Below are positions 3,594-22,575 of a stretch of 24,771 nucleotides of DNA, piece by piece. The position numbers and the translations under genes are program-made. The stretch lies in the IMG/VR virus record IMGVR_UViG_2547132278_000006; one strand, written 5' to 3'. The notes below the pieces were generated by a model. That model was given only the letters and a program-made list of their open reading frames with translations, was not told the origin of the DNA and ran no database searches. The stretch's first letter is position 1, and each line of letters begins with the position of its first letter. The stretch comes from a virus. Lineage: Duplodnaviria > Heunggongvirae > Uroviricota > Caudoviricetes.

Positions 3594-3670
3594 AAAAACC
3601 TCACAAAGATAAGTAATCACTTATTCATTGTGTGAGTTTACATTTATTGAGAGAACAAGACCAGATAGAT

Positions 3671-5877: not shown

Positions 5878-5955
5878 GTGCGTTTAAACAAGTTGTTATC
5901 TTATGTGTTTAAACAAGGCTTACAAATCAAAGAGAAGGTGGGGATATCCCCCACC
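5878..5955 (-). promoter_or_regulatory. nrdA-nrdB intercistronic element: two 14-bp direct repeats with a palindromic core, plus a GC-rich palindrome just after the nrdA stop
   Basis: TGCGTTTAAACAAG (5879-5892) and TGTGTTTAAACAAG (5904-5917), both containing the palindrome GTTTAAAC; GGTGGGGATATCCCCCACC at 5937-5955 lies 6 nt downstream of the nrdA stop. Confidence 0.35.
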
Positions 5956-8276: not shown

Positions 8277-8349
8277 GTATCACCAAATAAAGAGGGCCAC
8301 TAAATATAGTGGCCCATGTTAATAGATAAGCACTTACCTATCAATGAAA

Positions 8350-11807: not shown

Positions 11808-12893
11808 TCACACAGCCTCCGAACTCTCCGCTTCGGTGAGGATTTCCTGACACAAAATATCCAACTTGCTTAGATCAAATCCGCCGTCAGTATCGTGGAC
11901 AATCTTGCAATAAGCAGATACCGACTCTCCCAGGCTATCGATTTTGCTGGTTTCCGTTGTGCTTGCTGTCCCTTCCATCATTGATGACTTACGGATGAAG
12001 TTGCACACGACACCTTTTGCACCCATTGTTTTGAGGATGTTCTGGTACTTAATGCCTTCTTCATCGTTCTCAATTACGGCGCGGAAACGCACGTAGTTGC
12101 CGCGAATTTGGTCATCGGCAACATAATCTTCCAGGTTAATGAATTTAGGCGCACTGGTTTCGTAGTGACTGAAACTGCCGTCCGGGTTTACGATCATGTA
12201 ACCAGCCAGAGATCCAACATCTCCCCAATTTTGATGGGTCAGCGCACCGACACTGATAACTCCAGGAATGACCTCTTTATGGTTGTGGTAATGCCCACTA
12301 AGCACGAGACGAAAGCCGATATCCTTTAACTCCTGCGCATCGATACCGACGTCAGGCATTGTTGGAATGGCTTTGTTAATGGATGTATGGATAACAACGT
12401 CATGATTATCACCTTCTACGCTCTTACGTAATGCTTTCAGATCGCAGATAAGCTCTGCATGATTGTTACGCCAGCTAATCAGGTGGACAGTCACATCACC
12501 AATTTTTATTGAGTGTGGGCGTTTGCCACATACGATTACCACGCCGATAGAACTCAGCGATGCTGCTGCGTTGGCGCTATATACTGAATCGTTGGTTTCA
12601 AGATCGTGATTACCGGCCAGCATTACTACTGTCAGATCAAGCTCGTTGATAATCCACTTGTACGTTTCAGTTACGTAATGCAAAACAGAAGGGGACACAG
12701 TTCCTCGGACGTGAAATGTATCACCGGCAACCAACATGTACTTACAACCGGCCTTCTTCATGGCGATGGCTGCTTCTTTCGTTGCTTCCAACTGTATTTC
12801 AAGTCTGGAGTTAAGCCCCTCTGCGTTCGTCGTGGAGAACGCATCCCATTTGTGGTAGTGGCAGTCAGAAATGACGCCGTATGGCAAAGTCAT
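11808..12893 (-). CDS. Mre11/SbcD-like nuclease (calcineurin-like phosphoesterase; T4 gp47-like)
   Basis: Phosphoesterase motifs ISDCHYH, AGDTFH, GNHD, GHYH in canonical order; immediately upstream of the Rad50-like gene. Confidence 0.85.
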   Translation of the reverse strand: MTLPYGVISDCHYHKWDAFSTTNAEGLNSRLEIQLEATKEAAIAMKKAGCKYMLVAGDTFHVRGTVSPSVLHYVTETYKWIINELDLTVVMLAGNHDLETNDSVYSANAAASLSSIGVVIVCGKRPHSIKIGDVTVHLISWRNNHAELICDLKALRKSVEGDNHDVVIHTSINKAIPTMPDVGIDAQELKDIGFRLVLSGHYHNHKEVIPGVISVGALTHQNWGDVGSLAGYMIVNPDGSFSHYETSAPKFINLEDYVADDQIRGNYVRFRAVIENDEEGIKYQNILKTMGAKGVVCNFIRKSSMMEGTASTTETSKIDSLGESVSAYCKIVHDTDGGFDLSKLDILCQEILTEAESSEAV

Positions 12894-13147
12894 GTGTTTT
12901 TCCTTTGTGGTTATTTTGATACAAATTTTAAGAGCAATGAGGAGGTAAACAACTATGCATAACGGTATGTTAGGAATGAAACGAGCGTCTTAATATACAA
13001 AATTTATAAGTAAGTATATACCTATTTATTGTGGCGCAACTTTGCTTGTCTGTATGACTAAAAATAAGACAGGATCACTGTAGAACGCTATGAGAGCTAT
13101 TTTGAGGAGGCGTAGATTCTATCTACGCCAATATACGATCTGGAGGG

Positions 13148-13792
13148 TTACAGCGCGTCAGTGGGCTTTTTACGCGCTGCGTTTATGCTTATGACGCCAG
13201 CTTTTGGACGTGGGTCAACAAGGTTAAGCTCTTCTTCGCTGTGGTATTCGAGGTCGAACTCACGTTTTACATGTCTGATGTAGATTGCGGTGAGCAGGCT
13301 ATCTTTGGTCAGAAAGTGTCCGTAGGATTTGCGGATCACTTCTTCTACCTTCTCGATTTTCTCACCACCCATACAGAGATGATTAAACCGGCTGTGTTTC
13401 CGCAACATTTCGTATACTGGGCCTGAGTAAACCTTGTCTACTTTCCCAAAACGGATGATTTTCCCTGTGTCTGCGGATACGAGGCAAATCAGCTTGTCTG
13501 GTGATAAACGATCTCGCCACGTCACACCTGAACGGAGTGTGTTGAAGTAGGGAGCATCCAATCCGATGATCGGTTTACGAAATGCGAGTAATGGAACGTA
13601 CCTGATGCAACTGTTTAAATGAAAATTCACACCAGCCTTATCAAGTTTAATTCTGGTTTCGTAGATCGGGCACTTCGCCGCTATACCGCAGATGTCACAA
13701 AGCAACTTCTGCTTATTCAGGTTGGAATTTGATTCGATAGTGTAGGAGCCGTCTTCAAGACGACGAACCCAGCGCGTGCGTTTTAGATCCAT
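13148..13792 (-). CDS. hypothetical Cys-containing protein, divergent from repA and adjacent to the origin
   Basis: 214-aa ORF with clustered cysteines (LLCDICGIAAKCPIY...NSC); function unknown. Confidence 0.5.
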   Translation of the reverse strand: MDLKRTRWVRRLEDGSYTIESNSNLNKQKLLCDICGIAAKCPIYETRIKLDKAGVNFHLNSCIRYVPLLAFRKPIIGLDAPYFNTLRSGVTWRDRLSPDKLICLVSADTGKIIRFGKVDKVYSGPVYEMLRKHSRFNHLCMGGEKIEKVEEVIRKSYGHFLTKDSLLTAIYIRHVKREFDLEYHSEEELNLVDPRPKAGVISINAARKKPTDAL

Positions 13793-13870
13793 ATGTCATT
13801 TTTCTGTGATTGTTAGCCGAGGCAACGATAACCCACCAGGTGCGCCGAAGGTAGTAAATGCCTGTTTTAA

Positions 13871-13951
13871 TTATTCACATATCCACAGGATAGATCCTAA
13901 TAAAGAGATCCATAGATAGATCCTTATATAGATCAAATAAGATCCCCGATC
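13871..13951. promoter_or_regulatory. oriR-like origin element: tandem DnaA boxes followed by a cluster of six GATC (Dam) sites
   Basis: TTATTCACA (13871-13879) and ATATCCACA (13879-13887) are each 1 mismatch from the DnaA box TTATCCACA. GATC at 13893, 13907, 13919, 13931, 13941 and 13948, i.e. 6 sites in 59 bp within AGATCC-type repeats. Confidence 0.6.
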
Positions 13952-13991
13952 GCTGTAAGCCGCGCCACGCCTGGTCTAAAGTCATGTTCAT

Positions 13992-14093
13992 GTATGCTGT
14001 CAGCGGTAATTGATAGTCTGTCAGCGGTTCACCGTATGCTGCCAACTGTTTTTGGTATTCTGTCAGCGGCAAATCAAGTATGCTGTCAGCGGT
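13992..14093 (+). repeat. origin iterons: 5 direct repeats of a 16-bp unit (GTATGCTGTCAGCGGT) at 21-23 bp spacing
   Basis: Units start at 13992 (perfect), 14013, 14034 (degenerate), 14055 and 14078 (perfect); phased at about 2 helical turns; they end 20 bp before the repA ATG, so they overlap the repA promoter region. Confidence 0.8.
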
Positions 14094-14113
14094 TGAATGA
14101 CAAAGGTGTCCAC

Positions 14114-15208
14114 ATGTCCACAAAAAATAAAAAAGGTAAAAATAACAAAGAAGTAGAAGATAACATCGACAACTTTGAAGAAGGTTCCCTTGAATTGTAC
14201 ACAGGGGAACTTGTCCCTAATAGCAACAATACAGTCCAACCAATTGCGTTGATGCGACTGGGGTTGTTCGTCCCCACGCTTAAGGGAACAAAATACAGTA
14301 AACGTAACAAGCCAAATGAGATCGATGCTTCAAAGGAGCTTGTCCAGCTCGAAGTAGCCCGTTCTGAAGGCTATTCCGATATCAAGATAACCGGTCCTCG
14401 TCTCGACATGGATCATGATTTCAAAACGTGGGTGGGCGTTGTGCGTTCGCTGGCAGAATACGGCGAACCTAACGGTCGTGTCGAGTTAAGCATCACGAAA
14501 TTTGCTAAGTTTTGTGGCTATCCATCGTCACAGATCCGCAAAACACTCCGCGACCGGCTTACAAACAGTCTTTTGAAGATCATGCGTACAACTCTGTCTT
14601 TCCAGAGAACGTATGAAGAAAAGAACGTCGACGGCTCTAACAAGATCTCGCTTCTGATGGTGCACCTCATCAATAGCGTGGACTACAACGAGCAGAAAGA
14701 TACGGTGGTGTTCTATGCAGAACCGAAGCTGGCCGAACTATATCGCTTTGACCATAAGGTTCTTTTGCAGTTAAAGGTTATCAATAAGCTACCACGCAAA
14801 GAAACAGCACAGGCTCTGTACACCTTCATCGAAAGTCTTCCAACCAAGCCTGCGCCGGTATCGCTTGCTCGATTGCGTGCGCGACTCAATTTGAGTAGCA
14901 GGAATGTAAGCTCGCAGAATCAGACTATACGTAACGGCTTAAAAGCTCTCCAAGATTTGGGCTATCTCGAATACAGCGAGATTAAGCGAGGGCGGTCGAT
15001 CTATATCCAGATTCACAGCCGTAATCCAAAACTTAAAGTCGCACCGCCAAAACCTGAAGACATCGAACCCAAAAAACCAGATGAGAAAGCCGGGGAAATT
15101 GATGCTAAACAGAACATTATCAACAAGATAACTGAACTTTCGCAGAATTTGACGCCTGAAAATATCAAGATGATTGAGATCCTTTCCAATAGTCTCAAAC
15201 TGCTTTGA
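14114..15208 (+). CDS. repA: iteron-binding replication initiator (RepA-like), 365 aa
   Basis: The only substantial plus-strand gene; flanked upstream by 5 iterons and downstream by 12. Start taken at ATG 14114 (MSTKNKKGK...); the ORF track's 5' extension to 13994 runs through the iterons. Assignment is mainly contextual (P1/F-type organisation). Confidence 0.7.
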   Translation: MSTKNKKGKNNKEVEDNIDNFEEGSLELYTGELVPNSNNTVQPIALMRLGLFVPTLKGTKYSKRNKPNEIDASKELVQLEVARSEGYSDIKITGPRLDMDHDFKTWVGVVRSLAEYGEPNGRVELSITKFAKFCGYPSSQIRKTLRDRLTNSLLKIMRTTLSFQRTYEEKNVDGSNKISLLMVHLINSVDYNEQKDTVVFYAEPKLAELYRFDHKVLLQLKVINKLPRKETAQALYTFIESLPTKPAPVSLARLRARLNLSSRNVSSQNQTIRNGLKALQDLGYLEYSEIKRGRSIYIQIHSRNPKLKVAPPKPEDIEPKKPDEKAGEIDAKQNIINKITELSQNLTPENIKMIEILSNSLKLL

Positions 15209-15740
15209 TATGCTGTCAGCGGTGAAATGTATGCTATCAGCGGCTATTTTTCTGAAATGTATGCTGTGAACGGTTAAAGATATGCTACCAGCGGTATAGT
15301 GAGATGAACGTATGCTGTGAGCGGTAAATCATCTATCACCACTCAATGCTCTGTCATACCTCCCCAGTGGTTACTAACCTCGAAGAGTGCATTCCATATA
15401 GGTTTGCGCTCACTAACATTCTATTGCTATTGCGCTGATTGCTTGTAGTGAAAGGCATTTATTGCCTGCTGCTCCCTGATAGAACGTATGCTGTCAGCGG
15501 TGTTTTATTGAGGAATTTTTGTTTGGATATGCTATCAGCGGTAATTAATGGTATATGTCAGACCTTCGTATGCTGCCAGCGGTAATTTTGTTCTGGTTAT
15601 ACCCATACCGGTACACATTATTCATGCAATGTCTTAAGTATGCTGCCAGCGGTAAAAAATCGAGTAAAGTATGCTGTGAGCGGTGATATAGACTCTCGAT
15701 ATGCTATCAGCGGTAGTTGATTGTGTATGCTGTCAGCGGT
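15209..15740 (+). repeat. incA-like copy-control array: 12 direct iterons of the same 16-bp unit
   Basis: Units start at 15209, 15230, 15260, 15281, 15311, 15486, 15527, 15568, 15638, 15669, 15699 and 15725, all same orientation; most spacings are about 21, 30-31 or 41 bp (roughly 2, 3 and 4 helical turns), with 26 and 70 bp as exceptions; 0-3 mismatches to consensus; a 160-bp iteron-free spacer at 15327-15485. Confidence 0.8.
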
Positions 15741-15757
15741 GACGACTATGAAATATG

Positions 15758-15780
15758 ACTGCGGAACGAGCCGCAGTCAG
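15758..15780. terminator. stem-loop (GACTGCGG-AACGAG-CCGCAGTC) at the end of the iteron array
   Basis: 8-bp perfect inverted repeat followed on the plus strand by TTTGCATTT; lies between the iterons and the convergent CDS 15788..16000. Confidence 0.35.
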
Positions 15781-15787
15781 TTTGCAT

Positions 15788-16000
15788 TTAGTGTATTTTC
15801 TTTAACAGACCCCAAAGTGTTCCGGCTTTTGTAGTCAGTTTTCCTGTTTCTGGATCGTACATACGCCATTCACGCCGCTGGTGGACGATATACCCATCTT
15901 CACGTTCCAGACGCTCAAGAATGCCAGGCTGCTTGAAACCCTTAGCACGCCAGTAGCCGCTTGTTTTCTCGATTTCCAGACCTGCCAGTGTTAATGCCAT
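15788..16000 (-). CDS. hypothetical small protein (70 aa)
   Basis: ORF whose start overlaps the upstream gene's stop (ATGA at 16000); no motif. Confidence 0.5.
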   Translation of the reverse strand: MALTLAGLEIEKTSGYWRAKGFKQPGILERLEREDGYIVHQRREWRMYDPETGKLTTKAGTLWGLLKKIH

Positions 16001-16335
16001 TACCCAACCTCCTTGCAGTCATCGAAAAGGTAGCTTTGCTGAGAAGCGTGAACGCCATAAAAGCCCTTGTATTTGTTGTATACGAAGTGGTCTTCTCCGA
16101 CGCCGGTTAATTTGCCATTACGATTTGTGAGATATGGGGATGACAACACTCGATCGTCACGCACAATATAGAACTGGTCGCCGCTGTCTACGACCATCGC
16201 TCCATATGGTGCTTTTATGACGTCGGTAAGAGCGCCATTCTTAACGTCGGCTACAGACATTTCACACTGATAAACAGTGGTGTCGGCCACAACGATCGAA
16301 GAAAGAAACAACAGCGCGAATGGGATGGTCTTCAT
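16000..16335 (-). CDS. small secreted protein with N-terminal signal peptide (111 aa)
   Basis: MKTIPFALLFLSSIVVADTT has n/h/c-region character; two Cys (mature N-terminus and C-terminus) could form a disulfide. Confidence 0.6.
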   Translation of the reverse strand: MKTIPFALLFLSSIVVADTTVYQCEMSVADVKNGALTDVIKAPYGAMVVDSGDQFYIVRDDRVLSSPYLTNRNGKLTGVGEDHFVYNKYKGFYGVHASQQSYLFDDCKEVG

Positions 16336-16511
16336 GCTGCCACCTCTTTGATTACATCAAATGCTGAATTAAATACGAGCACGATAGCCAAAGCGTTTAT
16401 GACTACGTCGTGCACCGGGGAAAAGACTTTACGAATGACACCAGTGAAAATGCAGTCGATGACAAAAGCTATTGAAACGATGAGTAACAAGTATTCAATA
16501 AAAATCTTCAT
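16332..16511 (-). CDS. small hydrophobic membrane protein (59 aa), not in the supplied ORF track
   Basis: Hand translation: MKIFIEYLLLIVSIAFVIDCIFTGVIRKVFSPVHDVVINALAIVLVFNSAFDVIKEVAA; two hydrophobic segments; its stop overlaps the next gene's ATG (ATGA at 16332-16335). No obvious SD. Confidence 0.4.
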   Translation of the reverse strand: MKIFIEYLLLIVSIAFVIDCIFTGVIRKVFSPVHDVVINALAIVLVFNSAFDVIKEVAA

Positions 16512-16550
16512 GATAGGTAGATACTAACTTATATAAACTTTACTGTAAAC

Positions 16551-16826
16551 TCACTCAAAAGTGCTGATGCTTAAAATACGCTCAAGATGTTCAGCATCTT
16601 CATTACTGATTTGTTGAGTCTCTTCTACGTACCAACAGTTGCCGTTATGCCAACAAACACCATCATCATCAACCATCACTGAATCAGCGTCATGACCTGT
16701 ATATTCAACAAGAGTACGCTGGATCAGCGTGTCAGTTTCTTCATCGTTAAGGCCATCGACTTTGACCATAAAAAGCGGAAACACGTCATAGACAGTGCTG
16801 GTAACGATTCGAACTAAAACTCTCAT
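16551..16826 (-). CDS. small strongly acidic protein (91 aa)
   Basis: About 18 Asp/Glu against about 5 basic residues; preceded by the conserved ACCACAAAAGGAAAAACAC-ATG initiation cassette. Confidence 0.6.
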   Translation of the reverse strand: MRVLVRIVTSTVYDVFPLFMVKVDGLNDEETDTLIQRTLVEYTGHDADSVMVDDDGVCWHNGNCWYVEETQQISNEDAEHLERILSISTFE

Positions 16827-16881
16827 GTGTTTTTCCTTTTGTGGTTAGTGTTTACTTATTTTGTTAGTTATGAATAGGCGA

Positions 16882-17307
16882 TCAATCTTCTTGGTTAGGG
16901 AAAAACTGTTCAATAACTCTGTCAACGGCTGTGTCTATATGGAGTAGATGCCACACAACCATATCTTTGCTTCCCATGCCTTGTGTGAATATCACGTCAT
17001 ACTTACGCCATGCGCAGTGGAACCAATATGCTGAGTCATCAATTGGTAAATCCTCTCCCGCCTCTTTGAAGTATTTCAGCAGCATTGCCTGCTCTGCCGT
17101 TGGCGTTGGACCTATTTCCTGAGCGTACATACGGATGAATCGCTGCCAGTCTGTCTCGTCGGGGGTTGGATCTGGTGGGGTCATTTCTGCGATAGCGTTT
17201 CGTAGCTGATGCGCCCAATCAGGTTCAGGAAAGCCTTTTGCTACTTCATCATCAATAACATCCAGAGCCACGTTTGCGGCATCGTAGAGTTTCTTAATAA
17301 CTGTCAT
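16882..17307 (-). CDS. hypothetical acidic protein (141 aa)
   Basis: Intact ORF rich in Asp/Glu and Pro; no motif recognised. Confidence 0.55.
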   Translation of the reverse strand: MTVIKKLYDAANVALDVIDDEVAKGFPEPDWAHQLRNAIAEMTPPDPTPDETDWQRFIRMYAQEIGPTPTAEQAMLLKYFKEAGEDLPIDDSAYWFHCAWRKYDVIFTQGMGSKDMVVWHLLHIDTAVDRVIEQFFPNQED

Positions 17308-17356
17308 GTTTTCTTAGCCTTTTAAACAAATTGTTTTCTTAATAAGATAATTGCGA

Positions 17357-17384
17357 TAAAAAAGGCGTCCAACTGGACGCCTGA
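17357..17384 (-). terminator. rho-independent terminator
   Basis: Minus strand: AGGCGTCC-AGTT-GGACGCCT followed by TTTTTTATC; 15 nt downstream of the SPFH gene stop. Confidence 0.6.
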
Positions 17385-17398
17385 ACTTTTAAGGGGAG

Positions 17399-18229
17399 TT
17401 ATTTCACTGTAATGAAAGGAGTGTTAGCCCCTTGAGTCATGTACTGCGGTAACTGGCCATTCCATTTATTGATGGCTTCCAGCTCCATAACGTTCGGGTT
17501 TTGACGCAGAGCTTCACCGCGCAGACGAATGGCGTCTGCTTCTGCTTGCGCACGAGCACGGATAGCATCAGCTTCACCATTAGCCTGTTCACGTAGCATA
17601 TTCGCCTCAGCTTTACGCTGTTCAACTTCCTGCTGGCGTTGCAGAGTACGCTGGTTAGCCGTTACTTTGGCGTTGATAGATTCAATGACGGTTTTTGGGT
17701 AATCAGGCTTTCCAACCCATGACAGGCTCAGTACCTCAATACCAACCGGAGACATCTCTTTCTGAATGTCTTTCAGTGCGTTGTCCAGCAATTGCGCCTT
17801 ACCACCGTCGATAAATGAGTCAGTGGTCATACGGCTGGCCAAACGGTTTAGAGAGTCGGCAATTTTCTGACGCAGATCTGATTCGGTGATATCGTCTACG
17901 CCTTTGCGATAGGTCTGGAACACCGTCGTTACCTTGTCACGATTAACCAGATACGCAACGCCAATTTTGTGACCAATAGCAGTACCGTCACTCATCTGGA
18001 ATGTGAACGGCTCGTCGTAGGTCTTCATTTGTTTGAAGGTCGGGAATACGTAAAGTTCGGTGTTAAGACCTGTCCATTGGCGACCAACGCCAACCACTTC
18101 ACCGATCCCTTTGTCTTCACCTAATTTGTTTACTTTGATGCCAACGTATCCAGGCTCCACGCGATCACAGCCAGTAAGACCCATTGTGCAAATAGCCGCC
18201 AGAGCAACTGCAAGTAAACCTTTCTTCAT
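17399..18229 (-). CDS. SPFH/band-7 (prohibitin/HflC-like) lipoprotein
   Basis: Signal peptide with lipobox MKKGLLAVALAAICTMGLTGC; SPFH-like core and an Ala/Glu/Arg/Gln-rich coiled-coil tail (QRQQEVEQRKAEANMLREQANGEADAIRARAQAEADAIRLRGEAL) typical of HflK/C-type proteins. Confidence 0.75.
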   Translation of the reverse strand: MKKGLLAVALAAICTMGLTGCDRVEPGYVGIKVNKLGEDKGIGEVVGVGRQWTGLNTELYVFPTFKQMKTYDEPFTFQMSDGTAIGHKIGVAYLVNRDKVTTVFQTYRKGVDDITESDLRQKIADSLNRLASRMTTDSFIDGGKAQLLDNALKDIQKEMSPVGIEVLSLSWVGKPDYPKTVIESINAKVTANQRTLQRQQEVEQRKAEANMLREQANGEADAIRARAQAEADAIRLRGEALRQNPNVMELEAINKWNGQLPQYMTQGANTPFITVK

Positions 18230-18232
18230 TAC

Positions 18233-18433
18233 TTATTTCCCCTTTGCTTTGATTAATGAGTTGATAAACTTACGACCAGCAATAAGACCGATTACAGGAG
18301 CACCAAAACCAACGATAACTCCAAACATGACGGCTAAATCACTCTTGGTAGAAATCAGCGACGGAACCAGTAAACCGTAGATGAGAGCCACTGAAACGCC
18401 TGTGGCTACTGCCAATAGATAGATTTTGATCAT
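18233..18433 (-). CDS. small two-TM membrane protein (66 aa), cotranscribed upstream partner of the SPFH lipoprotein
   Basis: Two hydrophobic helices; stop 3 nt before the SPFH start; conserved initiation cassette (CCACATAGGAAAACAC-ATG) upstream. Confidence 0.6.
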   Translation of the reverse strand: MIKIYLLAVATGVSVALIYGLLVPSLISTKSDLAVMFGVIVGFGAPVIGLIAGRKFINSLIKAKGK

Positions 18434-18462
18434 GTGTTTTCCTATGTGGTTGTTATGCGAAA

Positions 18463-18491
18463 ATAATAAGTAAGTACTTATATATTTTCAA
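18463..18491 (-). promoter_or_regulatory. sigma70-like promoter for the small-TM/SPFH operon
   Basis: Minus strand TTGAAA-N17-TATTAT (5/6 and 5/6 to consensus), about 30 nt upstream of the ATG at 18433; the spacer holds the near-palindrome ATATATAAGTACTTACT. Confidence 0.45.
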
Positions 18492-18492
18492 G

Positions 18493-18522
18493 AGATAAAA
18501 AAGGCGTCCTGTGGACGCCTTG
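18493..18522 (-). terminator. rho-independent terminator
   Basis: Minus strand: AGGCGTCC-ACA-GGACGCCT followed by TTTTTTATC; 4 nt downstream of the recA-like stop; same stem sequence as the terminator at 17357. Confidence 0.6.
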
Positions 18523-18525
18523 TGT

Positions 18526-19599
18526 TTACTCTTCTACTGACTCGGTGGGGTTGTCTTTTGCTCTTCGGTCGTCGATTGCCTGCAAAGCCGCAATGATTTC
18601 AGCCAGTGGCTTCTCCCGATACATCTCGACGATCTGCGATTTGGTGTATTTCTTGTCACCAATTTCAACTCGCCCGCTGGCGTTCTTTGGCAGGTATCCT
18701 TCTTCCAGCATGTACTCGACGAGCGATTCGATAACGTCGAGGCCACGAGTAGGATCGAAGTAGAATTTCCAGGTGCATTTGCCATACGGTGGTGCAACTT
18801 TGTTTTTGATGCATTCTGCGCCTACGTCCTGGCCGATCTTCTCTTTACCATCCTTCATCACCGATGCACCAAGACGGATACGTACAGAAGCGTAGAACTT
18901 CGGTGAATCTCCACCTGGCGACGTAGTAGGGTCGCCAAACATTACACCGATTTTTGTGCGAACCTGATTCAAGAAGATGATGCAGGCGTTGTATTTGCGT
19001 GCCCACAAAGCCAGAGTAGGGAAGTTCGCACTTGTCGCACGAGCCAGTGCCGTATTGTCGTTCATGTTTAGCTGATCTTTGTCTTTGGCAGTGCCTTCAG
19101 CCATCTTTTCGAACTTCTCGGCTTTGGAGTTCGGAACCATAGACGCAAGTGAGTCAGCCACGATACAGATAGGTGCTGATTCAGGGATAAGCTCTTCATC
19201 ACGTACCAATTTAAGTATTGTGCCGATCAACTCTACAGAGTCTTCGAAGGTGTCAGGCTGCTTGTATACCCACTGACCGTCATCCTCATCTGCGTTCAGG
19301 CCATTGGCTACAGCCAGGCCAACGTCAAAACTGTTTTCATGATCGAGGAATACCGCCAGACCATCTTGTTTTTGAGCGGAGATCATCGCTGCTGTTGCAA
19401 GGAACGTTTTCCCTGCACTTGGAGGACCGAATACTTCGACGATACGACCACATGGGAAGCCGCCATCGTAACGACCAGAAATAGCTTTGTTTAACGGTGG
19501 AAAGCCTGTATCAATCCAATGAGTTACTTTCTGAATTTCGTCGTTGCTACCGATTTTCTTTTTCAGAGCAAGTGCCAGTGCGGATTTTCCTTTTGCCAT
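18526..19599 (-). CDS. recA: RecA-family recombinase
   Basis: Walker A GRIVEVFGPPSAGKTFLA; FLNQVRTKIGVMFGDPTTSPGGDSPKFYASVRIRLG is near-identical in pattern to recalled E. coli RecA ([36 protein letters not shown]). Confidence 0.9.
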   Translation of the reverse strand: MAKGKSALALALKKKIGSNDEIQKVTHWIDTGFPPLNKAISGRYDGGFPCGRIVEVFGPPSAGKTFLATAAMISAQKQDGLAVFLDHENSFDVGLAVANGLNADEDDGQWVYKQPDTFEDSVELIGTILKLVRDEELIPESAPICIVADSLASMVPNSKAEKFEKMAEGTAKDKDQLNMNDNTALARATSANFPTLALWARKYNACIIFLNQVRTKIGVMFGDPTTSPGGDSPKFYASVRIRLGASVMKDGKEKIGQDVGAECIKNKVAPPYGKCTWKFYFDPTRGLDVIESLVEYMLEEGYLPKNASGRVEIGDKKYTKSQIVEMYREKPLAEIIAALQAIDDRRAKDNPTESVEE

Positions 19600-19601
19600 G
19601 A

Positions 19602-19874
19602 TCAGGCTCCTTTTGTTTCGTTGATTCGTTTTAAAGCGGCGGATTCATCGAATACAATCGCATCGTGGTTAAGGAGTCTGGATACACGAGCGAGGATTTT
19701 TACGACCTGCTCGCTGACTAATCCAAACTCGCGATCTGTCGCTTTCATTCCGGCAGCGCCTAGAATTGACGGCAGTGCGATGACAGCGTACTCACCGTGA
19801 TAAAAGACAATCTCTTTTGCCAGTTGGGCAGGGGTGGTTGTAGCGCCATTGATAATCGATTTAAGCATTAGCAA
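19602..19874 (-). CDS. hypothetical protein (90 aa)
   Basis: ORF between the FEN and recA-like genes, overlapping the FEN 3' end by 7 nt; no motif. Confidence 0.45.
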   Translation of the reverse strand: MLMLKSIINGATTTPAQLAKEIVFYHGEYAVIALPSILGAAGMKATDREFGLVSEQVVKILARVSRLLNHDAIVFDESAALKRINETKGA

Positions 19875-20812
19875 TACCTTTCGAATGGAAGAACAAACAC
19901 TTCAAGGTCTTCAAGGAACGAACGGAAATTCAGCTCGTAGCACAGTTGCTCGAATGCTTTCACGTCACGATTGCCTTTGATTGTTTCGATTTCGGTAGGC
20001 GGAAACTTCGTCTCAATCAGGTTCATTAGCGTGATGTTTCTCTTGAACGCTTCGAGCATTCGACAGCCTGTTTTCTCGTTGAAGGCATTCTTCGCTAGTT
20101 TGTTGAAGGCGGTCTTATGGCGTCCTTTGTCAACCACGATTGAGCCGTCGTTGATGCCGCGTACCATCGTTGCGACACTTCCCCATTCATGCAGCAGCTC
20201 TTTCGCACCGCCAGCACCAATGCCACCAACACCGCTAATATTGTCCGATTTATCGCCTTGTAATGCTTTTGCTTCCAAAAATGCGCGAGGAGTAGCGAAT
20301 CCTGTCAGCTCCGCAAATTGCTCAAAATTAACCTGCTTGTTTTTGGCGTCTTCGCGCAGGCTTACCCAGCTTACGTTTTCGCGAACTAACTGAAGCCAGT
20401 CGCTATCGCCTGTTAACAGATAGATGTGTTCAACGATTGGCTGCGGTGCAATGCTGGCTACCAGCAGCCCGGCCAGATCATCCGCTTCTGCATCTTTTGC
20501 AATGAGTTGGGTAACTCCAAGCGCGGTCATCATTTTGAGGATGTATGGCTTCTGGATAGCAAAGCCTTCCTTCATCTTTTTCATATCAGGATCGTCGTCG
20601 CGATTTGCTTTGTAGTCCGGGTAAAAGTCGCGACGCTTGTCACTAAATCCATCCCAAAGAATCATAGGTCGGGCATGGAGGATGGAGGCATAACGACGGA
20701 CGTTCTTAACAAAGCCGAAAGCAGCCTGTACTTCCATTTCGCCGTTGTGCAATTTGTCAGATTGTTGGTGGTAATAACCCAGGCTATTGCCATCTACGAA
20801 GAGATAATTCAC
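19868..20812 (-). CDS. flap endonuclease / 5'-3' exonuclease (T5 D15 / T4 RNase H family)
   Basis: YLFVDGNSLGY, AKDAEADDLAGLL, TGDSDWLQLV and H3TH-like GDKSDNISGVGGIGAGGAKELL. Start is uncertain: the ORF track starts at GTG 20863, but that places a strong terminator hairpin inside codons 2-9; GTG at 20812 follows the hairpin and has GGAAGGAA upstream, so it is preferred here. Confidence 0.85.
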   Translation of the reverse strand: MNYLFVDGNSLGYYHQQSDKLHNGEMEVQAAFGFVKNVRRYASILHARPMILWDGFSDKRRDFYPDYKANRDDDPDMKKMKEGFAIQKPYILKMMTALGVTQLIAKDAEADDLAGLLVASIAPQPIVEHIYLLTGDSDWLQLVRENVSWVSLREDAKNKQVNFEQFAELTGFATPRAFLEAKALQGDKSDNISGVGGIGAGGAKELLHEWGSVATMVRGINDGSIVVDKGRHKTAFNKLAKNAFNEKTGCRMLEAFKRNITLMNLIETKFPPTEIETIKGNRDVKAFEQLCYELNFRSFLEDLEVFVLPFERYC

Positions 20813-20825
20813 CGGTACATTCCTT

Positions 20826-20858
20826 CCAAAAAGTAAGGCGTCCGTAGACGCCTTACTG
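20826..20858 (-). terminator. rho-independent terminator downstream of the SSB gene
   Basis: Minus strand: GTAAGGCGTC-TACG-GACGCCTTAC followed by TTTTTGG; 15 nt after the SSB stop; shares the AAGGCGTC/GACGCCTT stem core with the terminators at 17357 and 18493. Confidence 0.55.
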
Positions 20859-20872
20859 GTCACGTAATGGGA

Positions 20873-21901
20873 TTACAGAGAGTCCAGCTCTCTCAGTAGG
20901 TCATCCAGACCTTCATCTTCCGTCGCAGATGCGGCTGCTACAGATGTCGCTGCGACTGCTTCAGACTCTTTGACTGATACTGCAACGGCAGCGGGACTTG
21001 CTTCTGGTTTAAATTCAGTTTCAACGGCACGGAGGATTTCTTCATCAACCAGACTGGTTGGTTCAGAAGCTGGGGTATGAGCGGTAGCTACAGCAGTCGC
21101 ACCCTCCGTATGACCAGTGACAGAGCCAAATCCAGGTAGTGCCGCAGCCGATGTTTTCGCGGTTGAGGAAATTGCTGGTGCAGATGCTGCGGCAGTTGGT
21201 GCAGCGATGCCAATCAGACGACCCATAGTGCGAACTGTCGACAGAAGACGAGTTTCATCAGCTTGATTTGCGTATGCGATCAGATCATGCTGGGTATTCC
21301 AGAATTTATCTTCGATATCGCCTTTGTAGACTTTACGCTTAGGCGAGACGTCATATTTGGTATCGCGACCAGAGCCAGTACGTTTAATCAGGAATGCGTA
21401 GCCTTCCTCTTTGCTCAGTGGATTGCCGATATCATCAGCGATGTCTTCGGTGATTGCTTTGCAGATATCATCGAATACAGTAGACGGCAGCTCGATTAAC
21501 TGGCATTTCTCAGCATCTGCGAAATCCTCACGAGCAGAAAGAATGCCGTTGACCAGGTAGCGAGGAGTGGCACGCATTTGACCGATGCGTTCTTCCATTG
21601 CTTTGTTACCCTTGTGACGAGCGCGACCTTCCATCACCATTTCGCATAGCTGACAAGCGCGACCGTGAGTATGTTGCTCACAAATATAAGCGTTGGTTGC
21701 TTCTTTACCTTCCTCGTTCTGATACTTAACGTAGTGCATACCGAAAGTCTGGAAGAACTTACCGTTTGGGTCGTCTTTATTCGGGAAGATGCGGATATAG
21801 TTGACGCCGTCTTTTAAGCGAGTCAGATCAACGTTGTTACCACGTTTGGCGGCAATGTCTTCACGAGTTTTGTTAAGCAAATCAAGTAATGTCTTAGACA
21901 T
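20873..21901 (-). CDS. gp32-like single-stranded DNA-binding protein
   Basis: IRIFPNKDD matches T4 gp32 IRFLPSKND; Zn-ligand pattern H...C...C-x2-C (CEQHTHGRACQLCEM); Ala/Thr/Ser-rich low-complexity linker; acidic C-terminal tail (EDEGLDDLLRELDSL, compare gp32 DDIDNLLNEI). Confidence 0.75.
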   Translation of the reverse strand: MSKTLLDLLNKTREDIAAKRGNNVDLTRLKDGVNYIRIFPNKDDPNGKFFQTFGMHYVKYQNEEGKEATNAYICEQHTHGRACQLCEMVMEGRARHKGNKAMEERIGQMRATPRYLVNGILSAREDFADAEKCQLIELPSTVFDDICKAITEDIADDIGNPLSKEEGYAFLIKRTGSGRDTKYDVSPKRKVYKGDIEDKFWNTQHDLIAYANQADETRLLSTVRTMGRLIGIAAPTAAASAPAISSTAKTSAAALPGFGSVTGHTEGATAVATAHTPASEPTSLVDEEILRAVETEFKPEASPAAVAVSVKESEAVAATSVAAASATEDEGLDDLLRELDSL

Positions 21902-22018
21902 GTGTTTCTCCTTGTTGTGATTTGGCCGATGGCGCTATGCGCGTTGGGCTTTCGTTCATTCGTGGCTCTTTCGAGCTGTTAAATGATAGATCAGTACTTA
22001 CTTATTATCTATCAAAAA

Positions 22019-22450
22019 TCAACGGGGAGTAATAAAGCGTTCAGAGCCTAATCGCTCTAATTCAACGATGGCCATCTTTGACGCCTGAACGATCATGTCT
22101 CGGCGATGCGAAAAGGCGGCGACAGCATGTTTGTATATGTCTGCGATGTGCCGTGCTTCATCCAACTTCTGCCTTTTAGACAGATACTGTGGGTTTGTTT
22201 TAACCTTAGCGTCCAGTACAGATTCGTTGAACTTAATGCCGTTCATACTCAAGTTCTTACGCTCTGTGTCGTATAGCTTTGCTTCAACAGCTTCAAGGTT
22301 AAGTTTTGCCTCTGCGACACTTCTTTCTGCATGAGCGAGTTTTGAGCCATACTCCATTAAAAGGCGGGGTTGTCTACGCCAGACTTCCTCCAGATTGTCT
22401 CGGTCAAACTCGAGATCAGACATTATTTTCTCGTAAATATCGGTGATCAT
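22019..22450 (-). CDS. hypothetical protein, possibly UvsY-like recombination mediator
   Basis: 143 aa (T4 UvsY is 137 aa); LLMEYGSKLA...AEAKLNLEAVEAKLYD loosely parallels recalled UvsY LYSKWL...AQKKVALKARLDYY; sits next to the gp32-like gene in a RecA/Mre11/Rad50 context. Functional call is weak. Confidence 0.45.
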   Translation of the reverse strand: MITDIYEKIMSDLEFDRDNLEEVWRRQPRLLMEYGSKLAHAERSVAEAKLNLEAVEAKLYDTERKNLSMNGIKFNESVLDAKVKTNPQYLSKRQKLDEARHIADIYKHAVAAFSHRRDMIVQASKMAIVELERLGSERFITPR

Positions 22451-22482
22451 GTGCTTTCCTTTTTACTTATCATCTTATATTG

Positions 22483-22520
22483 ATTATATCATTGTGATGA
22501 TAAGGCAAGGAGTTCGAGGA
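22483..22520 (-). promoter_or_regulatory. candidate promoter with extended -10 (TGATATAAT) upstream of the UvsY-like gene
   Basis: Minus strand TTGCCT-N14-TATAAT with TG at -15/-14; -10 hexamer at 22483-22488, about 30 nt upstream of the ATG at 22450. Confidence 0.4.
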
Positions 22521-22544
22521 TAGGGGATATGAGGGGATAAGAGA

Positions 22545-22569
22545 AAACATGGCCATAGAGGCCATGTTT
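22545..22569 (-). terminator. stem-loop downstream of the polymerase gene
   Basis: AAACATGGCC-ATAGA-GGCCATGTTT, a 10-bp perfect stem 7 nt after the polymerase stop; the 3' tract is only moderately T-rich. Confidence 0.4.
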
Positions 22570-22575
22570 ATGGGA

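What the first reader, a model, noticed from the sequence alone, without database searches (positions are those of the whole stretch)
12981..22012. Recurrent near-palindromic AATAAGTAAGTACTTA motif in intergenic regions, in both orientations
Seen in sequence: AATAAGTAAGTACTTATAT at 18465-18483 forms the spacer and -10 of the SPFH-operon promoter; the same motif occurs inverted at about 21991-22010, upstream of the gp32-like gene; a close variant ATAAGTAAGTATATA is at about 12985-13000, upstream of mre11; partial TTACTTAT copies lie at about 16850 and 22468. The core TAAGTA-AGT-ACTTA is palindromic, so it could be an operator for a dimeric regulator as well as promoter sequence.
Basis: seen in the sequence. 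Interest (0 to 1): 0.4.

Follow-up and report, generated by a model that had tools for sequence, protein, structure and literature searches.

The report
Genome-wide operator of SSU5-like phage-plasmids
The recurring motif is one arm of a 20-base palindromic protein-binding site found about 20-30 times between the genes of SSU5-like phage-plasmids (a family that includes the plague plasmid pMT1); it is most likely the operator through which the element's own repressor keeps its lytic genes silent.

Summary
The window is an SSU5-like phage-plasmid, 98.5% identical to Escherichia phage PhiR41_1. It holds six copies, all intergenic: 3609, 8322, 13006, 16513, 18466 and 21986. There are also isolated half-sites.

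Whole genomes carry 18-32 copies, almost all intergenic, ahead of replication, recombination, nucleotide-metabolism and virion genes. Orthologous sites are 86% conserved, against 53-55% for their flanks. The two arms have the same statistics and show no compensatory changes, so this is a DNA site for a dimer, not an RNA hairpin.

Two Acinetobacter lineages carry concerted variants: ATCAGTCAGT|ACTGACTGAT and ATTAGTAAGC|GCTTACTAAT. The binder is therefore encoded by the element and co-evolves with the site.

The best candidate is the XRE-family regulator next to the integrase, which lies outside the window. It is expressed in lysogens. Sites lie at or next to its gene in several lineages. Its recognition helix changes N to R where the site changes A to C. 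The lytic isolate SSU5 lacks it.

The closest analogues are the dispersed operators of the P1 C1 repressor and of the Cluster A mycobacteriophage repressors. No binding or transcription-start data exist. An activator role and an RHH (ribbon-helix-helix) protein as binder remain open.

The parts
18466..18485 (.). Dyad site W5, ATAAGTAAGT|ACTTATATAT (+ strand). It lies in the spacer and the start of the -10 of the promoter for the small membrane protein and SPFH/stomatin genes (18433-17399, minus strand).
   Evidence: Weight-matrix score 24.2. Sequence. Identical in SSU5 and in Y. pestis pMT1.
18463..18491 (-). Sigma-70-like promoter TTGAAA (18491-18486), 17-bp spacer, TATTAT (18468-18463). It is preceded by an intrinsic terminator at 18521-18501.
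   Evidence: 10 of 12 matches; terminator-like hairpin. The orthologous gene in Cyrano is at the detection floor in the lysogen.
21986..22005 (.). Dyad site W6, ATAGATCAGT|ACTTACTTAT (+ strand). It lies between the UvsY-like gene (22450-22019) and the gp32-like SSB gene (21901-20873). The degenerate arm contains GATC and is conserved as such in SSU5 and pJN2-26.
   Evidence: Score 24.5. Alignment. Candidate minus-strand promoter TAGATA-17-TATCAT at 22011-21983.
13006..13025 (.). Dyad site W3, ATAAGTAAGT|ATATACCTAT. It lies about 120 nt upstream of the SbcD/Mre11-like gene (12893-11808, minus strand).
   Evidence: Score 25.6. Conserved in SSU5 and pJN2-26 while the flanks diverge.
8322..8341 (.). 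Dyad site W2, ATAGATAAGC|ACTTACCTAT (minus strand: ATAGGTAAGTGCTTATCTAT). It lies upstream of ribonucleotide reductase alpha (8276-5961, minus strand).
   Evidence: Score 26.7. 0 or 1 mismatch to the degenerate pattern. Alignment.
8285..8315 (-). Conserved hairpin GGGCCACTATATTTAGTGGCCC plus a T-tract. It starts 7 nt after site W2 and ends just before the reductase ribosome-binding site. This site-then-terminator arrangement is also found at two virion-gene junctions elsewhere in the genome.
16513..16532 (.). Dyad site W4, ATAGGTAGAT|ACTAACTTAT. It abuts the annotated start (16511) of a 59-aa ORF that heads the operon ending in the Cra-like gene.
   Evidence: Score 21.9. 95-100% identical in SSU5 and pJN2-26. 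In Cyrano, expression in macrophages rises exactly from this gene onward (+3.65 log2).
3609..3628 (.). Weaker dyad site W1, ATAAGTAATC|ACTTATTCAT. It lies 16 nt upstream of the probable ThyX start codon, and the ribosome-binding site follows directly.
   Evidence: Orthologues in PhiR41_1, SSU5 and pJN2-26.
16852..16859 (+). Isolated half-site TTACTTAT between two small minus-strand genes, just upstream of a ribosome-binding site.
   Evidence: score 10.3 as a full site.
22463..22470 (+). Isolated half-site TTACTTAT just upstream of the UvsY-like gene start (22450, minus strand), downstream of a TGATATAAT extended -10.

Best explanation
The motif is the operator of a genome-wide regulon of SSU5-like phage-plasmids. 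It is a 20-bp dyad, ATA(A/G)GTAAGT|ACTTAC(C/T)TAT, bound by a dimer (or higher oligomer) of a DNA-binding protein encoded by the element.

About 20-30 copies lie in the short intergenic regions ahead of nearly every lytic transcription unit. These units cover recombination, replication, nucleotide metabolism, portal, capsid, tail and lysis genes. Six copies are in this window.

I think the binder is most likely the XRE-family helix-turn-helix regulator encoded next to the integrase. This is CYRAN_45 in phage Cyrano, or PhiR41_1 87738-88124, and it lies outside the window. In the plasmid-prophage state it would occupy the dyads and block RNA polymerase. At some copies the dyad fills the spacer and -10 of a good promoter, as at 18463-18491. 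At others it lies over the start or leader of the transcript. Loss or inactivation of the regulator would release all units at once.

Shown here:
- the dyad, its copy number and its intergenic placement;
- its conservation;
- recognition at the DNA level rather than as RNA;
- concerted change of the dyad between lineages.

Inferred:
- that the site is bound by a protein at all;
- which protein binds it;
- that binding represses.
For: 1. Real and non-random. ATAAGTAA occurs 16 times in intergenic DNA and once in coding DNA in PhiR41_1, where only 11% of the genome is intergenic. There are 29 matrix hits against 1.9 expected, and 26 of them are intergenic.

2. Same site at orthologous positions in SSU5, Klebsiella pJN2-26, Cyrano and pMT1. 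It is also found in IMG/VR relatives with 60% G+C and only 40-60% protein identity. Across 27 orthologous pairs, identity is 86% in the site, 53-55% in the flanks and 77% in the downstream coding sequence.

3. A dimer site on DNA. The arms have identical statistics, and T2, A3 and T6 are invariant in both arms across the 57 sites. There is no covariation: position 4 pairs in 24 of 57 sites, close to the roughly 26 I calculate for independent arms. G-U (50) and A-C (41) combinations are about equal, and 56 pairs are other mismatches.

4. Encoded by the element and co-evolving. A. baumannii plasmid NZ_CP143349 has 32 copies of ATCAGTCAGT|ACTGACTGAT. A second A. baumannii lineage uses ATTAGTAAGC|GCTTACTAAT. 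Same host species with different sites means the binder is not a host factor.

5. Pointers to the XRE regulator.
- It is present in 960 plasmid records, most of those listed 100-115 kb and carrying an adjacent integrase, as in SSU5-like plasmids.
- It is expressed about 10-fold above background in the Cyrano lysogen (from PMC9928086).
- Sites lie at or next to its gene. There are three in the XRE/cro-like intergenic region of Acinetobacter plus one just beyond it. Two tandem sites lie just upstream of it in L061. Three flank it in L051 and L033. A conserved weaker core, GGTAAGTGCTTACC, lies between its promoter and start codon in E. coli, Klebsiella and pMT1.
- Its recognition helix reads KN in all lineages with A at site position 7, and KR in the lineage with C there.
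- The lytic isolate SSU5 lacks the whole integrase/XRE/cro-like block.

6. Repression. Genes just downstream of the dyads are at background in the lysogen. This includes the gene behind the TTGAAA-17-TATCAT promoter. In thyX, the methylase gene and CYRAN_31 the ribosome-binding site follows the dyad directly, so the dyad must lie in or at the start of the transcript.
Against: - No binding, footprint or transcription-start data exist for any member of the family.
- The helix/site covariation rests on a single N-to-R change in one lineage.
- SSU5 keeps 20 or more high-scoring sites although it lacks the XRE gene. That fits a recent deletion. It also fits a binder that SSU5 still has, such as the RHH-like protein encoded after the helicase gene.
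- In E. coli-type elements the site at the XRE gene is only a weak variant (score 7.6).
- Most dyads have no recognisable or conserved -35. If they mark promoters, these would need help to fire, which would suit an activator.
- The lysogen data cannot tell 'repressed' from 'not activated'. There is no expression step at the sites.
Confidence: 0.55

Rival explanations
1. Activator box. The dyad is bound by a conserved lytic-cycle activator that stands in for the missing -35 at about 20 middle and late promoters. The -10 would be formed by the last TAT of the dyad plus yAT. This is the logic of phage P1 late promoters, which have a -10 plus an inverted repeat near -22 and are switched on by Lpa (from my own knowledge of P1).
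For: - Most copies lack a -35, and no -35 is conserved.
- TAT-y-A-T follows the dyad in many copies.
- Three unrelated junctions have a hairpin starting 5-12 nt after the dyad. A transcript starting about 7 nt after that -10 would begin inside the hairpin arm and escape termination.
- The dyads precede virion and lysis genes as well as early genes.
- SSU5 grows lytically and keeps all sites without the XRE gene.
- In Cyrano in macrophages, expression rises from the genes directly behind some dyads: CYRAN_56 and CYRAN_60 by about 3.6 log2, and CYRAN_12 by 2.5.
Against: - The yAT extension is as frequent on the upstream side as on the downstream side (A at +2: 33 against 24 of 57; T at +3: 38 against 35). 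It therefore looks like part of the symmetric site, not a directional -10.
- The distance from dyad to start codon ranges from 11 to 139 nt. In several copies it leaves no room for a leader.
- Dyads cluster at the XRE/cro-like switch region, which is typical of an immunity operator.
- Site specificity differs between lineages in the same host species, as immunity systems do.
- The obvious candidate activator, the small winged-helix protein encoded just upstream of the terminase genes, keeps its recognition helix (TKQSIQFSIR against TKQALQFSIR) in the lineage whose dyad has changed.
Confidence: 0.2
2. Same operator, different binder. The dyad is recognised by the small ribbon-helix-helix-like protein encoded after the UvsW-like helicase gene (CYRAN_117; PhiR41_1 40460-40738). 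It would bind as a dimer of dimers on the two TA(A/G)GTA sub-sites, alone or together with the XRE protein.
For: - It is conserved in E. coli, Salmonella (including SSU5) and Klebsiella elements.
- A 92-aa ORF with the same strand-helix-helix pattern lies at the syntenic position in Acinetobacter.
- It is expressed about 12-fold above background in the Cyrano lysogen.
- Its operon starts at a divergent promoter region that holds a dyad.
- Each arm contains an internally symmetric TA..TA sub-site, and the two sub-sites lie about 12 bp apart. This suits ribbon-helix-helix tetramers such as Arc (inference from my own knowledge).
- It would explain why SSU5 retains intact sites.
Against: - The fold assignment rests only on the sequence pattern. 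Pfam, PHROGs, NCBIfam and PDB searches gave nothing. The AlphaFold model was poor, with pLDDT 56.
- No dyad cluster lies next to its gene beyond the single divergent-promoter site.
- No residue/base covariation could be read.
Confidence: 0.12
3. The sites are dispersed partition or nucleoid-organising sites, for example for the two ParB-like proteins or the ParA partner. This would resemble the dispersed centromere sites of phage-plasmid N15 or KorB sites on plasmid RK2. Effects on transcription would be secondary at most.
For: - Palindromic sites dispersed over a plasmid-prophage.
- A dyad sits directly upstream of the ParB-like operon.
Against: - The ParB-like genes are silent in the lysogen, at 5-9 normalised counts.
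- The partition operon that is expressed (parA and a ParG-like gene) has no dyad upstream.
- Placement is tied to gene starts, and sites cluster at the XRE/cro-like switch.
Confidence: 0.05
4. The palindrome acts as an RNA hairpin (a processing site, stabiliser or terminator), or it is simply the AT-rich sigma-70 promoter consensus of the element recurring by descent or by chance.
For: - The perfect consensus could fold into an 8-10-bp hairpin.
- The sites lie in transcribed intergenic regions.
- The copy at 18466 overlaps a good promoter.
Against: - There are no compensatory changes. 147 of 570 arm pairs are non-Watson-Crick, with G-U (50) about equal to A-C (41), so there is no strand bias.
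- Conservation is position-specific, not pairing-specific.
- The -35 region is not conserved.
- The motif differs between two element lineages in the same host species. A host-polymerase consensus would not.
- Chance is excluded by the shuffles.
Confidence: 0.04

Closest known systems
Cluster A mycobacteriophage (L5, Bxb1) immunity repressor with 20-30 operator and 'stoperator' sites
   Same: - Twenty to thirty repressor sites spread through the whole genome, in short intergenic regions of early and late operons.
- Some sites lie in true promoters and most do not.
- A site sits at the repressor gene.
- The site motif and the repressor drift together between sub-lineages.
- Some members are extrachromosomal parABS prophages.
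(All from PMC6550527.)
   Different: - L5-type sites are 13-14 bp, lack dyad symmetry, are bound by monomers and are oriented with transcription.
- Here the site is a 20-bp dyad with equivalent arms.
- The hosts are Gram-negative and the candidate repressor is unrelated.
- Blocking of elongation has not been shown here. The expression drops I saw are explained by terminators.
Phage-plasmid P1 C1 repressor and its dispersed operators
   Same: - A plasmid-prophage of about 100 kb.
- One repressor controls many operators scattered over the genome, rather than a single switch region.
- Variable accessory immunity functions.
(From my own knowledge of P1; the P1 genome paper was not available.)
   Different: - P1 operators are 17-bp and asymmetric.
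- C1 is a 283-aa protein unrelated to the 128-aa XRE protein.
- P1 late genes are controlled separately through Lpa, whereas here the same dyad also precedes virion genes.
Lambdoid CI/Cro-type (XRE family) repressors with palindromic operators (lambda, 434, P22)
   Same: - Helix-turn-helix dimers on dyad operators of 14-20 bp that overlap promoters.
- Operators lie between divergent repressor and cro-like genes, as seen in the Acinetobacter lineage.
   Different: - Lambdoid phages concentrate operators at two switch regions and drive the rest through antitermination cascades.
- Here the operator is repeated ahead of nearly every operon.
- The candidate protein has no peptidase domain, so SOS induction (reported for Cyrano in PMC9928086) must work indirectly.
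P1 late promoters activated by Lpa (-10 plus inverted repeat near -22)
   Same: In both, an inverted repeat occupies the spacer and -35 zone of promoters that lack a -35, in a phage-plasmid. The dyad centre would lie near -20 if TAT+yAT is the -10.
   Different: - The dyad is not restricted to late operons.
- It is also present at the XRE gene.
- The flanks are symmetric.
- The distance to genes is variable.
- No Lpa homologue was sought.

Membership tests
Palindromic operator of an XRE/CI-type prophage repressor | Dyad-symmetric site of about 14-20 bp with equivalent half-sites | tested here: met
   20-bp dyad. Half-site base counts match in both arms over 57 sites, and T2, A3 and T6 are invariant in both arms.
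Palindromic operator of an XRE/CI-type prophage repressor | Overlaps core promoter elements or the transcript start of lytic genes | tested here: inconclusive
   Clear at the SPFH operon (TTGAAA-17-TATTAT) and at the end of the portal gene (TTGAAA-17-TATGAT). At other copies no -35 is seen. No transcription starts have been mapped.
Palindromic operator of an XRE/CI-type prophage repressor | Cognate repressor encoded by the element and expressed in the lysogen | tested here: met
   The XRE gene is present in 960 plasmid records, most of those listed with an adjacent integrase as in SSU5-like plasmids. CYRAN_45 reads 96 against a background of 9.8 in the lysogen. That it is the cognate protein is inferred.
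Palindromic operator of an XRE/CI-type prophage repressor | Operators in the repressor's own control region | tested here: met
   Acinetobacter has three sites in the XRE/cro-like intergenic region, two of them upstream of the XRE gene. L061 has two tandem sites upstream of the XRE ORF. L051 and L033 have three sites around it. E. coli, Klebsiella and pMT1 have only a weak conserved core.
Palindromic operator of an XRE/CI-type prophage repressor | Specific binding of the repressor to the site | not testable with these tools
   Needs EMSA, footprinting or ChIP. The only indirect support is the helix change N to R with the site change A to C.
Dispersed-operator silencing regulons (P1 C1; Cluster A stoperators) | Roughly 15-30 sites spread over the genome, including late operons | tested here: met
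   18-32 sites per genome in five elements, ahead of portal, capsid, tail and holin genes.
Dispersed-operator silencing regulons (P1 C1; Cluster A stoperators) | Asymmetric site with an orientation tied to the direction of transcription | tested here: not met
   The site is a dyad, and neither the arms nor the flanks show orientation bias.
Dispersed-operator silencing regulons (P1 C1; Cluster A stoperators) | Site motif and repressor diverge together between lineages | tested here: met
   Three motif types, each with its own XRE recognition-helix sequence. This is only one or two independent events.
Dispersed-operator silencing regulons (P1 C1; Cluster A stoperators) | Sites not linked to promoters block elongation | tested here: inconclusive
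   Lysogen expression tends to drop across sites (mean step -0.94 log2 in one condition). However, the largest drop coincides with a 25-bp hairpin terminator.
P1 Lpa-type activator-dependent late promoters | Inverted repeat at a fixed position (about -22) upstream of a -10, restricted to late operons | tested here: not met
   The dyads also precede early and DNA-metabolism genes and the XRE gene. Distance to the start codon ranges from 11 to 139 nt. The flanks are symmetric. Position relative to real transcript starts is unknown.
Structured RNA element (hairpin, processing site or terminator) | Base pairing maintained by compensatory or wobble changes on the transcribed strand | tested here: not met
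   423 Watson-Crick, 50 G-U, 41 A-C and 56 other pairs. Position 4 pairs in 24 of 57 sites, against about 26 that I calculate for independent arms.

The most novel reading that the evidence does not exclude
The dyads form a stoperator-like, genome-wide silencing system in Gram-negative phage-plasmids. One small repressor would both occlude the few strong promoters and act as a roadblock or insulator at every operon boundary. Its specificity would evolve in concert with 20-30 sites to create immunity groups. The enterobacterial elements, including pMT1 of Y. pestis and the pHCM2-like Salmonella plasmids, would then form one homoimmune group. Alternatively, the same site is used in turn by a lysogenic repressor and a lytic activator.
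Probability: 0.25. Interest if true: 0.6.

Novelty: new member of a known kind. Interest (0 to 1): 0.5.

Why it matters
SSU5-like phage-plasmids are very common 100-115 kb replicons in Escherichia, Klebsiella, Salmonella, Enterobacter, Citrobacter and Acinetobacter. Their backbone is shared with Y. pestis pMT1. The candidate regulator alone is found in 960 plasmid records.

How these elements keep about 100 lytic genes silent as plasmids has not been described. I found no paper in the searchable library that contains the core sequence.

A defined operator, a short list of candidate binders and natural specificity variants make several things directly testable:
- the lysis/lysogeny switch;
- immunity groups among co-resident phage-plasmids;
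- induction of elements that carry resistance genes.

The finding also gives a simple sequence signature for annotating transcription-unit boundaries in these genomes.

Tried and rejected
- RNA hairpin. Rejected on pair statistics.
- Host factor or plain promoter consensus. Rejected because the motif differs between two A. baumannii element lineages and the -35 region is not conserved.
- The protein annotated 'transcriptional repressor' in SSU5 (SSU5_121; PhiR41_1 37192-37710). It is an FljA-family protein, PF03614, E = 1e-68. FljA is known as a regulator of flagellin mRNA (my own knowledge), so I dropped it.
- Winged-helix protein upstream of the terminase genes (CYRAN_123). Disfavoured because its recognition helix is unchanged where the dyad changed, and diverged where the dyad is unchanged.
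- Fold of the RHH-like candidate. The AlphaFold model was too poor to use, pLDDT 56. PDB, Pfam, PHROGs and NCBIfam searches gave no function for any small candidate.
- Test for promoter activity from lysogen and macrophage RNA-seq. There was no upward expression step at the sites. Downward steps looked like roadblocks, but the largest is explained by a large hairpin terminator.
- Scan of IMG/VR with the degenerate pattern. It returned many chance single hits. Only loci with several sites were useful.
- An unrelated low-G+C element with a similar palindrome next to its own XRE repressor (L014). This is a coincidental look-alike.
- The search for related loci with the winged-helix protein. It returned only close relatives.
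- The P1 genome paper and a 2026 preprint on an SSU5-like element could not be read.

Full report
**What the window is.** Megablast places window 12000-23000 at 98.5% identity over 99% of its length on Escherichia phage PhiR41_1, at 96% on phage Cyrano (pLF82) and at 79% on Salmonella phage SSU5. It is therefore part of an SSU5-like phage-plasmid. Nearly all genes run on the minus strand. They include ThyX, ribonucleotide reductase, SbcCD-like nuclease, RepA, an SPFH/stomatin operon, a RecA-like recombinase, an exonuclease, a gp32-like SSB, a UvsY-like protein and DNA polymerase III alpha.

**Checking the observation.**
- The 19-mer is at 18465-18483.
- The core in the other orientation is at 21986-22005.
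- TACTTACTTAT with at most 1 mismatch gives 4 hits against 0.31 expected.
- TTACTTAT gives 7 hits against 0.64 expected, including the two 'partial' copies at 16852 and 22463.

The recurrence is real and not due to chance.

**What the unit really is.** I assembled the whole PhiR41_1 genome and counted k-mers.
- ATAAGTAA/TTACTTAT occurs 16 times in the 12 kb of intergenic DNA and once in the 96 kb of coding DNA.
- Iterating a weight matrix from the hits turned the 11-mer into a 20-bp imperfect palindrome, ATA(A/G)GTAAGT|ACTTAC(C/T)TAT.
- There are 29 hits against 1.9 expected. Twenty-six are intergenic. Eighteen score at least 20, and 17 of those are intergenic.

In the window the matrix finds five strong sites: 8322, 13006, 16513, 18466 and 21986. 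The expected number per shuffled window is 0.005. There is also a weaker site at 3609.

**Conservation.**
- The same dyad occurs 22-26 times in SSU5, 24 times in Klebsiella phage pJN2-26 and 19 times in Cyrano.
- It is also present in the SSU5-like part of Y. pestis pMT1.
- In these elements it precedes the same genes, including portal, capsid, tail and holin genes.
- Across 27 orthologous pairs the dyad is 86% identical. The adjacent 20 nt are 53-55% identical and the downstream coding sequence is 77% identical.
- The footprint extends about 4 nt beyond the dyad on each side. No second conserved block appears where a -35 would lie.
- IMG/VR relatives with 60% G+C and only 40-60% protein identity still carry ATAAGTAA-N4-TTACTTAT.

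**DNA or RNA.** Over 57 sites the two arms have the same base counts, and T2, A3 and T6 are invariant in both arms. Arm-to-arm pairs are 423 Watson-Crick, 50 G-U, 41 A-C and 56 other. The variable position 4 pairs in 24 of 57 sites, close to the roughly 26 I calculate for independent arms. That is the signature of a symmetric protein recognising each arm independently, not of a selected hairpin.

**Relation to promoters.**
- At 18463-18491 (minus strand) the dyad fills the 17-bp spacer between TTGAAA and TATTAT, just after a terminator.
- The same design, TTGAAA-17-TATGAT, recurs at the end of the portal gene.
- At the gp32-like gene the flanking hexamers are TAGATA and TATCAT.
- Elsewhere no -35 is visible.
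- The -10-like TAT+yAT is equally common on both sides of the dyad.
- In thyX, the methylase gene and CYRAN_31 the ribosome-binding site follows the dyad immediately.
- At three junctions, one of them the reductase site in the window, a conserved hairpin plus T-tract begins 5-12 nt after the dyad.

The dyad is therefore not a promoter consensus. It sits on or next to promoters, or over transcript starts, at varying offsets.

**Expression.** The supplementary table of PMC9928086 gives RNA-seq values for every Cyrano gene.
- Genes just downstream of dyads are at background in the lysogen, about 5-12 against a median of 9.8. This includes the gene behind the TTGAAA-17-TATCAT promoter.
- The genes that are expressed are repA, the partition operon, the toxin-antitoxin genes, the XRE regulator CYRAN_45 (96) and the small protein CYRAN_117 (114).
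- Across all sites there is no upward step in expression.
- The downward steps I saw are at least partly explained by terminators.

**The decisive comparison.**
- A. baumannii plasmid NZ_CP143349 belongs to the same family. It carries 32 copies of ATCAGTCAGT|ACTGACTGAT, that is A3 to C and A7 to C in both arms at every site.
- A second A. baumannii lineage carries ATTAGTAAGC|GCTTACTAAT.

Two specificities in one host species rule out a host factor. They show concerted evolution of a whole regulon with a binder encoded by the element.

**Which binder.**
- XRE protein next to the integrase.
  - It is present in 960 plasmid records.
  - Dyads lie at or next to its gene in several lineages.
  - A conserved weaker core lies at its promoter in E. 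coli, Klebsiella and pMT1.
  - Its recognition helix reads GYKN.N in all lineages with A at position 7, and GFKR.N in the lineage with C there. Asn with A and Arg with G:C is a plausible contact pattern, but that is my inference.
  - SSU5 was isolated as a lytic phage and lacks the whole integrase/XRE/cro-like block.
- Winged-helix protein upstream of the terminase genes. Disfavoured, because its helix is unchanged where the dyad changed.
- RHH-like protein encoded after the helicase gene. It cannot be excluded. It is expressed in the lysogen, conserved (including in SSU5) and syntenic in Acinetobacter. Its fold could not be confirmed.

**Conclusion.** The finding is a genome-wide operator.
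- About 0.85: it is a dyad-symmetric binding site for a regulator encoded by the element.
- About 0.55: the full model, in which the XRE repressor silences lytic units in the plasmid state.
- About 0.2: an activator role.
- About 0.12: the RHH-like protein as the binder.

The closest known systems are the dispersed operators and stoperators of Cluster A mycobacteriophages (PMC6550527) and of P1 C1. The present site differs from both in being a symmetric 20-bp dyad. No paper in the searchable library contains the core sequence.

Noticed in passing
window 5886-5898 and 17324-17336; PhiR41_1 5682, 15900, 16629, 30229, 32940, 45677/45702, 73105: A second, unrelated intergenic palindrome, AGAAAACAA(C/G)TTGTTTTCT. 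It has about eight copies per genome, 20-45 nt upstream of start codons. One copy lies between the two ribonucleotide reductase genes, two lie upstream of the small terminase gene, and one lies upstream of parA, which is expressed in the lysogen. It is probably the operator of another regulator.
   Followed up: partly
window 21902-21985 (minus strand), the leader of the gp32-like gene: The roughly 85-nt leader between dyad W6 and the start codon is almost invariant between E. coli, Salmonella and Klebsiella elements (GAGCCACGAA..GCCCAACGCGCATAGCGCC..AATCACAACAAGGAGAAA). It is much better conserved than other leaders. It might be a translational operator like that of T4 gene 32. This was not tested.
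   Followed up: no
window 8285-8341; PhiR41_1 51107 and 60231: At three unrelated junctions a strong hairpin plus T-tract begins 5-12 nt after the dyad and ends just before the next ribosome-binding site. This is conserved in three genomes. A transcript starting at the dyad would begin inside the hairpin arm, while upstream transcripts would terminate. Unexplained.
   Followed up: partly
window 18526-19599: The RecA-like gene here is 357 aa, as in SSU5 (358 aa). PhiR41_1 and Cyrano have a 779-aa version of 2.3 kb, presumably with an inserted intein or similar element.
   Followed up: no
Cyrano (L131) 31158-31213; PhiR41_1 about 13431, 45582 and 75117 (outside the window): Three copies per genome of a long, near-perfect hairpin of about 25 bp, CCTGCTTCTGTATATA...TATATACAGAAGCAGG, followed by Ts. 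Its AT-rich tip resembles a dyad half-site. The fold has a z-score of -6.9. It sits where expression falls 100-fold between the partition operon and the next gene.
   Followed up: partly
SSU5 (L005) about 41773-42761, compared with Cyrano 38252-43137: SSU5 lacks the roughly 4-kb block that holds the integrase, the XRE regulator and the cro-like gene. Plasmid forms of the family have this block. SSU5 looks like a natural repressor-less derivative.
   Followed up: partly
L218 (Y. pestis pMT1) 2121, 2448, 4490, 9971, 17017, 18497 and 20001-20387: The plague plasmid pMT1 keeps the dyads, including one identical to the window's 18466 copy. It also keeps the XRE gene with the same recognition helix, although part of the phage backbone is disrupted by IS elements.
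   Followed up: partly
L217 (A. baumannii NZ_CP043456) 15101-15766 and its intergenic regions: This Acinetobacter member encodes a protein annotated as a sigma-70-family sigma factor. It also has a further abundant intergenic motif, AACGGTACAAAA: GGTACAAA occurs 12 times in intergenic and once in coding sequence. This may be the promoter type of that sigma factor. No such gene lies at the syntenic position, between the cobS-like and polymerase III alpha genes, in the enterobacterial elements.
   Followed up: no
PhiR41_1 37192-37710 (outside the window): The gene annotated 'transcriptional regulator/repressor' is a full-length FljA homologue, the repressor of phase-1 flagellin (PF03614, E = 1e-68). 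This suggests the phage-plasmid may interfere with host flagellin expression.
   Followed up: no
window 18229-18236: One more TTACTTAT lies at the junction between the small membrane-protein gene and the SPFH gene, overlapping the stop and start codons. It has no partner arm and is probably coincidental.
   Followed up: no
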